From the IMG/VR virus record IMGVR_UViG_3300045988_145100, positions 1-64,000 of that record: 64,000 nt of DNA. One strand, given 5' to 3'. The notes beneath the pieces are model-generated. The model ran no database searches and was not told where the DNA came from. It was given only the letters and a program-made list of their open reading frames with translations. The DNA is from a virus. The translations under genes were made by a program, and so were the position numbers. Below, piece after piece: positions 18,023-19,097 of the stretch; position 1 is the stretch's first letter, and each line of letters begins with the position of its first letter.

Positions 18023-19097
18023 AAGTGAAAACTATTGCCCGAATCCTTCTTACCGTTTATCAGCGGGGTCGCATAAATATGCGGCTAACGGGGAAAGCTG
18101 ACCGTTACACATATAAGTCAAAATATGTTTAGGCGAAGTCAATCCCGTGGCAAGATTTTATATCTTTGGACAAAAATAAATAATTAAAACACTATCACCT
18201 TTTAATATAAATGAAAGGAGACAGTGTAAATGATTGGAATTTATAAATATCAAAATAAAATAAACCACAAAATTTATATCGGACAGAGTATTGACTTAGA
18301 ACAGCGTAGATATGCACATAAATCTTCTGCATTCAACAAAAATGCAAAAGATTACAATAGTCAATTTCATCAAGCTATTAGAAAATATGGATTAGAAAAT
18401 TTTTCTTATGAGGTAATTGTAGAAATATCAAAAGAAGAATATTCTAAACAAATATTAGATGATTTAGAAAAGTATTTCATTAAATATTATGATTCTTATA
18501 AAAATGGTTATAATGCAACAGAAGGTGGCGATGATAATCCAAATCGAGGTCAGTCTGGTGAAAAAAATGGTCGTGCATTATTAACTAGAGAAGATGTTTA
18601 TGATATTAGAGAATGTTATAATTCACATATTCCTTTTAAAGATGTTTTTGAGAAATATAAAGATAAAATATCTAAAAGAGGATTGCAAAAAGTTTGGTGG
18701 TTCGATACTTGGAAGGATATTCATCCGGAATATCACACTGAAGAAAATAAATATTGGCATTCTCATCAAGCGAAAGCAAATTCTTCTGAAATAGCTTCTA
18801 ATAACAAAAGAAAGTTTTCAAAAGAAACCGTAATACAGATGAGAAAAGATTATGATAGTGGTTTAAGTCCAAAAGAGGTGCAGTTAAAATACGCACCAGA
18901 TGTAAGTTGGAGTACTATATACAACATTATTACTCGACATACATATAAAGATATAGAATAAGCTGTATCGACTATGTGGGGTGAGACCCGCAGTACACTT
19001 TTTATTGATACAAAAGTGGAAATGGAGGACGCGTTGATGACTTGACAAGTCGGAGCGAAGAGATAGTCAGTGCCTATGGAAACATAGGAGGCACACG
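18023..19097 (+). mobile_element. group I self-splicing intron carrying a GIY-YIG homing endonuclease ORF
   Basis: Interrupts the EG|DSA Toprim motif in frame (1075 nt). 5' exon ends in U paired to an IGS-like GCCC at 18037-40. Intron ends in G 19097. Structured GC-richer flanks. Confidence 0.75.
18230..18961 (+). CDS. GIY-YIG homing endonuclease (intron-encoded)
   Basis: GIYKYQNKINHKIYIGQSIDLEQRRYAHKSS... is the GIY-YIG motif. The C-terminal half has a NUMOD-like DNA-binding region. Confidence 0.85.
   Translation: MIGIYKYQNKINHKIYIGQSIDLEQRRYAHKSSAFNKNAKDYNSQFHQAIRKYGLENFSYEVIVEISKEEYSKQILDDLEKYFIKYYDSYKNGYNATEGGDDNPNRGQSGEKNGRALLTREDVYDIRECYNSHIPFKDVFEKYKDKISKRGLQKVWWFDTWKDIHPEYHTEENKYWHSHQAKANSSEIASNNKRKFSKETVIQMRKDYDSGLSPKEVQLKYAPDVSWSTIYNIITRHTYKDIE

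What the first reader, a model, noticed from the sequence alone, without database searches (positions are those of the whole stretch)
18023..19097. Group I intron with a GIY-YIG homing endonuclease splitting the topoisomerase II large subunit
ORF 16757..18028 ends ...EIYITEG-K-stop and ORF 19206..19757 continues in GyrB homology. The missing DSAGG Toprim motif is found as [31 protein letters not shown] starting at 19098. Removing 18023..19097 (1075 nt) joins the halves in frame. The 5' exon ends in U, which can pair (G-U) with a GCCC internal guide 15 nt into the insert, and the insert ends in G, both group I hallmarks. Inside lies a 243-aa GIY-YIG endonuclease.
Basis: partly seen in the sequence, partly recalled or inferred. 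Interest (0 to 1): 0.55.

Follow-up and report, generated by a model that had tools for sequence, protein, structure and literature searches.

The report
Self-splicing intron in phage gyrase gene
A 1,075-base mobile group I intron carrying its own DNA-cutting enzyme interrupts the catalytic motif of a phage topoisomerase gene; this is an ordinary kind of element in a gene not previously listed as a target, and its RNA fold has one unusual, well-supported extra contact.

Summary
A 98%-identical uninterrupted GyrB exists in a sister phage, and DNA alignment breaks exactly at 18022/19098, so 18023..19097 is a discrete insert in the EG|DSA Toprim motif.

The insert is a group I intron of the phage IA2 type. 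It has:
- a 6-bp P10
- P3 to P9, plus P7.1 and P7.2
- a terminal G

Homologous introns sit at the same site in 20 other loci from viral, metagenome and MAG contigs (18 distinct ribozyme cores including the window's). On those cores, 98% of modelled pairs are kept and 35 of 93 pairs show compensatory changes. An ORF-less 301-nt homologue matches Rfam Intron_gpI at E=2.6e-8, which is below the gathering score.

The 243-aa ORF in the P6a loop is an intact I-TevI-like GIY-YIG endonuclease. In relatives it is intact, decayed or absent, while the ribozyme is kept.

This is a new member of a known kind.

The fold has one unusual feature. There is no P2. Two hairpins sit between P3 and J3/4, and the loop of the first pairs with the P7.2 loop. 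That pairing shows five complementary states across roughly 80 related phage introns. Splicing itself is inferred, not shown.

The parts
16471..16499 (+). Promoter-like site (TTGACA-17-TATAAT with TG) upstream of the small ORF and gyrB
   Evidence: 12 of 12 consensus match. This is a consensus match only; function is not shown.
16757..18022 (+). Exon 1 of the GyrB-like type IIA topoisomerase subunit (aa 1-422, ending ...EIYITEG)
18023..19097 (+). Group I intron, 1075 nt
   Evidence: The boundaries come from alignment with the intron-less relative L001.
18019..18022 (+). [quoted passage not shown]
   Evidence: Pairs with GCCC at 18037..18040. Invariant in 18 of 18 cores (helix 1). RNAalifold extends it to 6 bp with AA/UU.
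18031..18040 (+). Internal guide sequence ACUAUU-GCCC. The 5' part forms P10 with the 3' exon; the 3' part forms P1 with the 5' exon.
   Evidence: helices 1 and 2. P10 is 96% paired, and in L018 a U·G pair becomes U-A.
18044..18049 (+). P3, 5' strand UCCUUC
   Evidence: Pairs with GGAGGA at 19024..19029. Two pairs show compensatory change (helix 3). Enterococcus phage EF5 has AAUGGU/GCCAUU at the same two positions.
18053..18066 (+). Hairpin A (CCGU-UUAUCA-GCGG), located between the P3 5' strand and J3/4. Loop AUCA at 18059..18062 pairs with the P7.2 loop.
   Evidence: Stem covariation: helix 4 (GC, AU, CG and UA at one pair). Loop-loop covariation.
18068..18085 (+). Hairpin B (GUCGCAU-AAAU-AUGCGGC), immediately before J3/4 (CUAA)
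   Evidence: helices 5-6; 5 of its 7 pairs have changes on both sides.
18088..18093 (+). P4, 5' strand ACGGGG (P element)
   Evidence: Pairs with UCCCGU at 18143..18148. Invariant (helix 7). Aligned to P4 of RF00028 in L006.
18099..18141 (+). P5, P5a and P5b
   Evidence: helices 8-9. G-C/A-U exchange in P5a; three covarying pairs in P5b.
18143..18148 (+). P4, 3' strand UCCCGU (Q element AAUCCCGUGGC)
18149..18165 (+). P6 (GGC) and P6a 5' strand (AUUUUAUAUCU)
   Evidence: Pairs with 18949..18964. Six covarying pairs in P6a (helix 11).
18195..18221 (+). Hairpin that sequesters the endonuclease ribosome-binding site (UCACCUUUU ... GAAAGGAGA)
   Evidence: Predicted fold in the window and in most relatives that keep the ORF start. 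A regulatory role is inferred by analogy with T4 I-TevI.
18230..18961 (+). Homing endonuclease ORF, 243 aa: N-terminal GIY-YIG domain (aa 2-98) and C-terminal helix-turn-helix (about aa 184-240). It lies in the P6a loop, and its last codons form the P6a 3' strand.
18949..18964 (+). P6a 3' strand (AGAUAUAGAAU) and P6 3' strand (GCU), overlapping the end of the ORF and its stop codon
   Evidence: helices 10-11.
18970..18974 (+). P7, 5' strand GACUA (R element GUAUCGACUA)
   Evidence: Pairs with UAGUC at 19064..19068. Invariant (helix 12). Recovered independently by RNAalifold.
18975..18992 (+). P7.1 hairpin
   Evidence: helix 13; four pairs have changes on both sides.
18996..19018 (+). P7.2 hairpin. 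Loop UAUUGAUAC; UGAU at 19006..19009 pairs with the loop of hairpin A.
   Evidence: Stem: helices 14-15 (six covarying pairs). Loop-loop pairing.
19024..19029 (+). P3, 3' strand GGAGGA
   Evidence: helix 3.
19031..19056 (+). P8: outer 2 bp, internal loop, inner 5 bp and conserved loop UGACAA
   Evidence: helices 16-17.
19057..19068 (+). J8/7 and P7 3' strand (S element GAAGAGAUAGUC)
   Evidence: aligned to the RF00028 consensus GAAGAUAUAGUC.
19070..19094 (+). P9 with GAAA tetraloop
   Evidence: helices 18-19.
19097..19097 (+). Terminal G (omega G) at the 3' splice site
   Evidence: Conserved in all 18 cores.
19098..19757 (+). Exon 2 of GyrB (aa 423-641, starting DSASG; Toprim and C-terminal domains). 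The first 6 nt, GAUAGU, form P10.
19772..22105 (+). GyrA-like partner subunit (777 aa), uninterrupted in the window

Best explanation
18023..19097 is a mobile, self-splicing group I intron of the phage IA2 type. It is inserted between the Gly and Asp codons of the catalytic EGDSA (Toprim) motif of a phage GyrB-like topoisomerase gene.

Inferred splicing mechanism (the standard group I pathway):
1. The guide sequence ACUAUU-GCCC pairs with the last four exon-1 bases (P1, with U18022·G18037 at the cleavage site). It later pairs with the first six exon-2 bases (P10).
2. The core P3-P8 / P4-P6 / P7 binds a free guanosine, which attacks the 5' splice site.
3. The terminal G19097 then enters the same site and the exons are ligated. 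This yields mRNA for a continuous 641-aa subunit.

Inferred mobility: the 243-aa I-TevI-like GIY-YIG endonuclease encoded in the P6a loop cuts intron-less alleles in co-infecting relatives, and repair copies the intron in (homing). Translation of the endonuclease is probably held back by a hairpin that hides its ribosome-binding site.

What is shown here:
- the exact insert boundaries
- the fold and its covariation
- an intact endonuclease ORF
- presence/absence polymorphism of the intron
- decay of the ORF in relatives

What is inferred: splicing, endonuclease activity and target, and regulation.
For: 1. Exact, in-frame insert relative to a 91-94% identical sister phage that lacks it.
2. All 93 modelled base pairs are canonical in the window copy.
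3. On 18 distinct homologous cores, 98.4% of cells are paired (37-43% when the partner is slid). 35 pairs change on both sides (7-14 when slid). The covariation score is 0.309 against at most 0.064, and 0 of 500 shuffles reach these values.
4. RNAalifold independently recovers P1, P4-P6a, P7, P7.1, P7.2, P8 and P9.
5. The ORF-less homologue L006 (301 nt, same site) matches RF00028 end to end at 37.8 bits, E=2.6e-8. The window's 3' part alone gives 15.8 bits, E=0.045.
6. The intron is at the identical GAGGGU|...G|GAUAG site in 20 further loci (17 further distinct cores), whose exons are only 64-75% identical to the window. The ribozyme halves are 76-97% identical.
7. The ORF is intact in 5 copies, frameshifted or deleted in others and absent in one, while the ribozyme is kept.
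8. The endonuclease passes the Pfam GIY-YIG cut-off, aligns to the I-TevI catalytic domain, and has a C-terminal HTH.
Against: - There is no RNA data, so splicing is not demonstrated.
- Rfam Intron_gpI is not reached at its gathering score, either in the window (no hit) or in the ORF-less homologue (37.8 vs 50 bits).
- P1, P4, P6 and P7 never vary in the set, so they are supported by conservation and by homology to known introns rather than by covariation. Part of that invariance comes from how the homologues were retrieved (exact-match seeds in P4/P5 and J8/7-P9).
- The fold departs from textbook IA2: there is no P2, and two hairpins sit between P3 and J3/4.
Confidence: 0.93

Rival explanations
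1. The gene is genuinely split, as with T4 genes 39/60. A free-standing homing endonuclease gene has inserted, the RNA is not spliced, and the two GyrB parts are made as separate polypeptides that assemble.
For: Split topoisomerase genes with endonuclease genes between the parts are known in T4-type phages (established knowledge; reviews listed). Exon 1 ends in a stop codon two codons into the insert.
Against: The first in-frame start downstream is ATG 19206, 36 codons past the junction and after the DSA motif, with no Shine-Dalgarno sequence. About 340 nt of non-coding insert is conserved as a covarying group I fold. That fold is kept even where the endonuclease ORF is lost entirely, as in the 301-nt L006 copy. 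A non-spliced spacer would not be expected to keep it.
Confidence: 0.03
2. It is a dead intron. The ribozyme no longer splices in this phage, so its gyrB is a pseudogene or depends on a helper.
For: Splicing was not tested. The Rfam gathering score is not reached.
Against: Every modelled pair is canonical in the window copy. All invariant core positions of the family are retained. Both exons and the partner gyrA are intact ORFs. The endonuclease ORF is also intact, which points to a recent or active element.
Confidence: 0.03
3. It is another kind of intervening element: an intein or a group II intron.
For: GyrB and GyrA are known intein hosts in bacteria (established knowledge; one search lists intein surveys).
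Against: The reading frame stops two codons into the insert, so no continuous protein could be spliced. There is no reverse transcriptase ORF and no group II RNA match. The RNA has group I P/Q/R/S elements.
Confidence: 0.005

Closest known systems
Phage T4 td intron with I-TevI (subgroup IA2)
   Same: - Phage protein-coding gene interrupted at a catalytic motif.
- Nearly identical P4/Q and R/S elements (CUAACGGGGAA..., AAUCCCGUG, CGACUAU, GAxAUAGUC). The td sequence is recalled from memory, not fetched here.
- P7.1 and P7.2 are present.
- A GIY-YIG endonuclease ORF sits in the P6a loop.
- The endonuclease ribosome-binding site lies in a hairpin.
- The catalytic domain aligns to I-TevI.
   Different: - The host gene differs: type IIA topoisomerase GyrB rather than thymidylate synthase.
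- td has P2 between P1 and P3, and its P3 5' strand abuts J3/4. Here P2 is absent and two hairpins follow the P3 5' strand.
- The endonuclease C-terminal region matches only a generic HTH, not the I-TevI DNA-binding domain.
Staphylococcus phage Twort orf142-I2 ribozyme (IA2, crystal structure 1Y0Q)
   Same: Same order of elements in the 3' half: P7, P7.1, P7.2, GAAAU linker, P3', P8, J8/7, P7', and P9 with a GNRA loop. P3 has a similar sequence (AUCCUC/GGGGAU versus UCCUUC/GGAGGA). The Twort sequence is recalled from memory and was not fetched here.
   Different: Twort has a conventional P2 and a different P7.2 loop. It has no hairpins between P3 and J3/4.
Intron in the DNA polymerase III alpha gene of Enterococcus phages EF1/EF5 (MF001358, MF001361)
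   Same: Same architecture in a cultured phage:
- P1 GGGU/GCCC
- P3 directly after P1
- hairpin A with loop AAUCA
- hairpin B
- CUAACGGGGAAA
- P7.2 loop UAUUGAUAC
- S element and P9
   Different: Different host gene and insertion site. It carries a different internal ORF, which was not characterised here. The record annotates no feature over the matched stretch, and a neighbouring HNH endonuclease gene is labelled 'Phage intron'.
P11 tertiary pairing of subgroup IA introns (Jaeger, Westhof and Michel 1991, as cited and visualised in PMC12088405)
   Same: A Watson-Crick tertiary pairing that anchors the P7 extension to another part of the ribozyme.
   Different: Published P11 joins the P7 extension to the extended P6 stem. 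Here the partner of the P7.2 loop is the loop of a hairpin that follows the P3 5' strand.
T4 topoisomerase genes 39/60 split with mobA
   Same: A phage type IIA topoisomerase large subunit interrupted by a mobile element that encodes a homing endonuclease.
   Different: T4 makes separate polypeptides and uses translational bypassing in gene 60. Here there is a ribozyme fold and no downstream start codon, so RNA splicing is the expected route.

Membership tests
Group I intron | P1 helix between the end of the 5' exon and an internal guide sequence, with U·G at the splice site | tested here: met
   GGGU (18019..18022) pairs with GCCC (18037..18040), with U18022·G18037. Present in 18 of 18 cores. 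Invariant, so there is no covariation.
Group I intron | Terminal G at the 3' splice site, and P10 between the guide sequence and the 3' exon | tested here: met
   G19097. ACUAUU (18031..18036) pairs with GAUAGU (19098..19103); 96% of cells are paired (helix 2).
Group I intron | Conserved core: P3-P8 and P4-P6 domains, the P7 pseudoknot, and P/Q/R/S sequence elements | tested here: met
   Covariation is seen in P3, P5a, P5b, P6a and P8. P4, P6 and P7 are invariant. The R and S elements align to the RF00028 consensus.
Group I intron | Match to Rfam RF00028 at its gathering score (50 bits) | tested here: not met
   Window: no hit at gathering; the 3' part gives 15.8 bits. The ORF-less homologue L006 gives 37.8 bits, E=2.6e-8, full length. 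The match is significant but below the curated threshold. The shortfall is consistent with the atypical P2/P3 region, which the model aligns badly.
Group I intron | Removal restores an uninterrupted, conserved coding sequence | tested here: met
   The spliced product is 98% identical over its full length to P0001, and the DNA breakpoints are exact.
Group I intron | Guanosine-dependent self-splicing | not testable with these tools
   Needs in vitro transcription and splicing, or RNA from infected cells.
Subgroup IA2 | P7.1 and P7.2 hairpins between P7 and the 3' strand of P3 | tested here: met
   18975..18992 and 18996..19018. Together they have 10 pairs with changes on both sides (helices 13-15).
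Subgroup IA2 | P2 hairpin between P1 and P3, with the P3 5' strand adjoining J3/4 (as in td and Twort) | tested here: not met
   Only 3 nt separate P1 (ends 18040) from P3 (starts 18044). Two covarying hairpins (18053..18085) lie between P3 and J3/4. Whether a published subgroup definition already covers this arrangement could not be checked here.
GIY-YIG homing endonuclease (I-TevI type) | N-terminal GIY-YIG catalytic domain with GIY..YIG, conserved Arg, Glu and Asn | tested here: met
   Pfam PF01541, 26.6 bits against a cut-off of 22.6. Alignment to I-TevI 1LN0 covers GIY(3-5), YIG(15-17), R26/R27, E80 and N95.
GIY-YIG homing endonuclease (I-TevI type) | Separate C-terminal DNA-binding domain | tested here: inconclusive
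   PHROG HTH families match aa 184-242 (3e-5 to 2e-3). There is no Pfam hit and no match to the I-TevI DNA-binding domain.
GIY-YIG homing endonuclease (I-TevI type) | Cleaves the intron-less allele near the insertion site | not testable with these tools
   Needs a cleavage assay on an L001-type target.
T4 gp39/gp60-type split topoisomerase | Each part has its own translation start | tested here: not met
   There is no start codon or ribosome-binding site at 19098. The first in-frame ATG is at 19206.
Intein | Continuous in-frame ORF through the insert | tested here: not met
   There is a stop codon at 18026..18028, two codons into the insert.

The most novel reading that the evidence does not exclude
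The window's intron represents a large, structurally distinct class of phage group I introns. In this class the canonical P2 is missing and two hairpins are inserted between the P3 5' strand and J3/4. The loop of the first hairpin forms a Watson-Crick kissing interaction with the P7.2 loop. That contact may replace the P2 or P11 contacts of textbook IA introns and may not have been described. The same class has colonised at least five conserved motifs of phage type IIA topoisomerase genes: EGDSA, a site near GyrB aa 446, DxDxD, GLGEM and HPHGD.
Probability: 0.3. Interest if true: 0.5.

Novelty: new member of a known kind. Interest (0 to 1): 0.38.

Why it matters
For annotation, the practical point is that this phage's GyrB is one gene, not a truncated gene plus an orphan fragment. 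Gene callers and the Rfam gathering threshold both miss this, so introns of this class are probably under-annotated in metagenomic phage genomes.

For intron biology, it adds type IIA topoisomerase to the list of phage replication genes targeted at catalytic motifs. The intact, decayed and ORF-less copies together give a clean natural series of the homing cycle.

For RNA structure, the five-state covariation between the hairpin A loop and the P7.2 loop is a directly testable tertiary contact. The test is compensatory mutagenesis in a small (301-nt) natural ribozyme.

Tried and rejected
1. Rfam at gathering threshold on the whole window and on five related loci found nothing. Permissive mode on the whole intron gave only noise. 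Only the 3' part alone and the ORF-less homologue gave Intron_gpI.

2. My first hand model of P3 (UAUCAGCG with CGUUGAUG) was rejected. The homologues show that CCGU...GCGG is a local covarying hairpin and that the supposed 3' partner is not conserved.

3. RNAalifold paired AUCC (18043..18046) with GGAU at the 3' splice site instead of forming P3. The single L018 change fits both pairings. I rejected the alternative because the EF5 intron keeps complementarity only for the P3 pairing (AAUGGU/GCCAUU) and its 3' splice site (ACACG|AUUC) does not match.

4. A second exact AAGAGATAGTC at 30060 lies inside an ordinary coding region and is a chance match. An nhmmer search with the family profile finds no other copy in the window.

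5. blastn against cultured phages found only an 87-nt endonuclease match and 45-nt matches in Enterococcus phages EF1/EF5.

6. The SPO1 DNA polymerase intron was fetched to see whether it shares the class motifs. It lacks the GUAUCGACUA and UAUUGNNAC motifs.

7. Six library searches and reading of four papers found no group I intron reported in a phage gyrB or topoisomerase gene. They also found no description of hairpins between P3 and J3/4 or of the pairing with the P7.2 loop. The library lacks most subscription-journal papers, so this is weak evidence of absence.

8. No covariance model of the full core was built, because at 315 positions it would exceed the calibration limit.
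Full report
**1. The observation**

ORF 16757..18028 encodes the ATPase and transducer domains of a GyrB-like protein and ends ...EIYITEG-K-stop. Translation from 19098 starts [12 protein letters not shown]... and carries the Toprim and GyrB C-terminal domains. A GyrA-like ORF follows at 19772..22105.

Joining 16757..18022 to 19098..19757 gives a 641-aa protein. Among 5.8 billion clustered proteins its best match, P0001, is an uninterrupted 641-aa protein that is 98% identical over its full length. Hundreds of 634-640-aa relatives at 67-81% identity follow.

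P0001 is encoded on a 151-kb contig (L001) with the same gene order as the window. blastn of the window against L001 gives colinear blocks at 91-94% identity. They break exactly at window 18022/19098 = L001 7266/7267. The boundaries are unambiguous.

The window is a phage. It encodes DnaB, primase, a Dda-like helicase, Pol III alpha, RecJ, DNA and RNA ligases, anaerobic ribonucleotide reductase and tail proteins, and it has no close relative among cultured phages.

**2. What the insert is**

Rfam finds nothing at gathering threshold in the window. The reason is the 732-nt ORF inside the RNA. The 3' 160 nt alone give a truncated Intron_gpI match (15.8 bits, E=0.045) over J8/7, P7' and P9.

Exact-match scans with two conserved stretches of the insert retrieved homologous inserts at the identical GAGGGU|...G|GAUAG site. 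These scans covered IMG/VR, one representative genome per species, and JGI/ENA metagenomes. They gave 20 further loci, and with the window these make 18 distinct ribozyme cores. Insert lengths range from 301 to 1117 nt.

The 301-nt copy (L006) has no ORF. It matches RF00028 from end to end at 37.8 bits, E=2.6e-8. That is still under the curated 50 bits.

**3. The fold**

I deleted the variable P6a loop in silico and aligned the 18 cores (A1). I then wrote a structure from the window sequence:

| Element | Window coordinates |
|---|---|
| P1 | 18019-22 / 18037-40, with U·G at the splice site |
| P10 | 18031-36 / 19098-103 |
| P3 | 18044-49 / 19024-29 |
| Hairpin A | 18053-66 |
| Hairpin B | 18068-85 |
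| J3/4 | CUAA |
| P4 | 18088-93 / 18143-48 |
| P5, P5a, P5b | 18099-141 |
| P6 and P6a | 18149-65 / 18949-64 |
| P7 | 18970-74 / 19064-68 |
| P7.1 | 18975-92 |
| P7.2 | 18996-19018 |
| P8 | 19031-56 |
| P9 (GAAA loop) | 19070-94 |
| Terminal G | 19097 |

Counting on A1 gives:
- 98.4% of 1660 cells are standard pairs, against 37-43% when the 3' partner is slid by 1-3 columns.
- 35 of 93 pairs have changes on both sides, against 7-14 when slid.
- The covariation score is 0.309, against at most 0.064.
- No shuffle out of 500 reaches the observed values.

RNAalifold, which was not given my structure, recovers P1, both hairpins, P4, P5a, P5b, P6, P6a, P7, P7.1, P7.2, P8 and P9.

Three caveats apply:
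- The structure was derived from one of the rows, which inflates the percentage paired but not the compensatory counts.
- P1, P4, P6 and P7 never vary. Part of that invariance comes from the retrieval seeds lying in P4/P5 and J8/7-P9.
- The ORF loop was removed by hand.

**4. Subgroup and an unusual feature**

P7.1 and P7.2 place the intron with the phage IA2 introns. So does the near-identity of the P, Q, R and S elements with T4 td and Twort; those two sequences are recalled from memory and were not fetched.

It differs from those introns in one respect. P1 is followed after 3 nt by the 5' strand of P3, so there is no P2. Two hairpins lie between that strand and J3/4.

The P3 assignment rests on three points. 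The first is position: its 3' strand directly follows the GAAAU linker after P7.2, as in td and Twort. The second is two compensatory pairs. The third is the intron in the DNA polymerase III alpha gene of Enterococcus phage EF5. That intron has the same layout, but with AAUGGU/GCCAUU at the two P3 positions.

**5. A tertiary contact**

The loop of hairpin A (AUCA, 18059..18062) is complementary to the P7.2 loop (UGAU, 19006..19009). Both are invariant in the gyrB family.

I retrieved introns with other P7.2 loops from IMG/VR, using patterns that specify only the 3' side. I then read the hairpin A region. The two loops change together:

| P7.2 loop | Expected hairpin A 4-mer | Introns with it |
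|---|---|---|
| UGAU | AUCA | 24 of 27 |
| UGAC | GUCA | 10 of 12 |
| UGAG | CUCA | 1 of 1 |
| UGGC | GCCA | 5 of 5 |
| UGGU | ACCA | 32 of 39 |

Off-diagonal counts are low.

A stricter automatic hairpin parse gives 52 of 66 fully paired. When the classes are shuffled the mean is 31 and the maximum is 38 in 2000 trials. Most failures of that parse are off-by-one errors in the loop register.

Both hairpins leave the same end of P3, so the contact is sterically plausible; this is inference. The published P11 of subgroup IA joins the P7 extension to P6, not to such a hairpin. I found no description of this arrangement in the held library. I cannot exclude that the older subscription literature covers it.

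**6. The ORF**

The 243-aa ORF (18230..18961) lies in the P6a loop. Its last codons and stop codon form the 3' strand of P6a.
- It passes the Pfam GIY-YIG cut-off.
- It aligns over aa 3-98 to the I-TevI catalytic domain, with the GIY, YIG, Arg, Glu and Asn positions in place.
- It matches phage homing-endonuclease PHROGs (1e-29) and an HTH family at its C-terminus.
- Its Shine-Dalgarno sequence (GAAAGGAGA, 18213..18221) is predicted to pair with UCACCUUUU (18195..18203). An equivalent CUCCUU/AAGGAG hairpin is predicted in most relatives that keep the ORF start. This recalls the delayed translation of I-TevI; the parallel is an analogy, not a test.

Across the family the ORF is:
- intact in five copies (243-246 aa, 69-81% identical)
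- truncated, frameshifted or internally deleted in most
- absent in L006

The ribozyme is kept throughout. Compared with the window, the ribozyme halves are 76-97% identical while the flanking exon DNA is 64-75% identical. Together with the intron-less sister phage at 91-94% DNA identity, this is the expected signature of a homing element.

**7. Rivals**

- A T4 39/60-style split is unlikely. The downstream part has no start at the junction (first in-frame ATG at 19206, no ribosome-binding site). A non-spliced spacer would also not keep a covarying ribozyme after losing its ORF.
- An intein is excluded by the stop codon two codons into the insert.
- A group II intron is excluded by the RNA elements present and the lack of a reverse transcriptase.
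- A dead intron cannot be excluded without RNA. However, every modelled pair and every invariant core position is intact in the window copy.

**8. Verdict**

This is a new member of a well-known kind, a phage group I intron with a GIY-YIG homing endonuclease. Its target gene is not mentioned in the 2014 review of bacterial group I introns or in the papers found here.

The modest extra interest lies in two things. One is the distinct architecture and its strongly covarying loop-loop contact. The other is that relatives carry up to five related introns in their topoisomerase genes.

Noticed in passing
L018, L016, L056, L006, L039, L017, L012 (relatives); window gyrB aa 446, 505-515, 578/579 and gyrA aa 75/76 for reference: Relatives carry further related group I introns in the same topoisomerase genes, several of them ORF-less and about 250 nt. 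In window GyrB numbering they lie near aa 446, in the DxDxD Toprim motif (about aa 505-515) and at G|LGEM (aa 578/579). Another lies in GyrA at the HPHGD motif (aa 75/76). L018 has four such interruptions. The window has only the EG|DSA one.
   Followed up: partly
L001 1669..2996 versus window 13747..13756: The intron-less-gyrB sister phage has a 1326-nt insert with a LAGLIDADG-type ORF splitting its PIN-PhoH gene. The window's PhoH gene (12954..14171) is uninterrupted. The two near-identical phages therefore each carry a mobile insert that the other lacks.
   Followed up: partly
window 25094..26049: A coiled-coil protein with a C-terminal GIY-YIG domain appears frameshifted. The GIY..YIG motif is at aa 224-240 of ORF 25094..25948, and the rest of the domain continues in another frame (25840..26046). 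The sister phage L001 has a 318-aa gene called at the corresponding position, with a weak GIY-YIG hit. This could be a pseudogene, a sequencing error or programmed frameshifting.
   Followed up: partly
window 5822..7354 and 7895..10402: Adjacent phage ORFs have an SPFH/flotillin domain and Major Vault Protein shoulder and repeat domains (Pfam 1e-20 for the shoulder domain). This is unusual content for a phage.
   Followed up: no
L062 (Enterococcus phage EF5, MF001361, record 127200..128180): The DNA polymerase III alpha gene of this cultured phage contains an intron with the same P2-less architecture and the same loop sequences. The record annotates no RNA feature over the matched stretch of it.
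   Followed up: partly
L010, L051, L054, L057, L033: The exact 18-mer GAAGAGATAGTCAGTGCC (J8/7-P7'-P9) also occurs in related introns inserted in other, unidentified genes, for example at ...CAUG|GCAGGAGU. About 30 further matches in bacterial contigs are chance hits inside GC-rich coding sequence.
   Followed up: partly
L018 2774..3840: In this copy the 3' exon starts AAU (EG|NSA) instead of GAU. The intron has matching changes both in P3 (C-G to U-A) and in P10 (U·G to U-A). It also fits an alternative pairing of the P3 5' strand with the 3' splice site. With only one sequence this cannot be resolved.
   Followed up: partly
window 16471..16499: A perfect extended -10/-35 promoter consensus (TTGACA, 17 nt, TG-TATAAT) lies upstream of the 74-aa ORF that precedes gyrB.
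   Followed up: no
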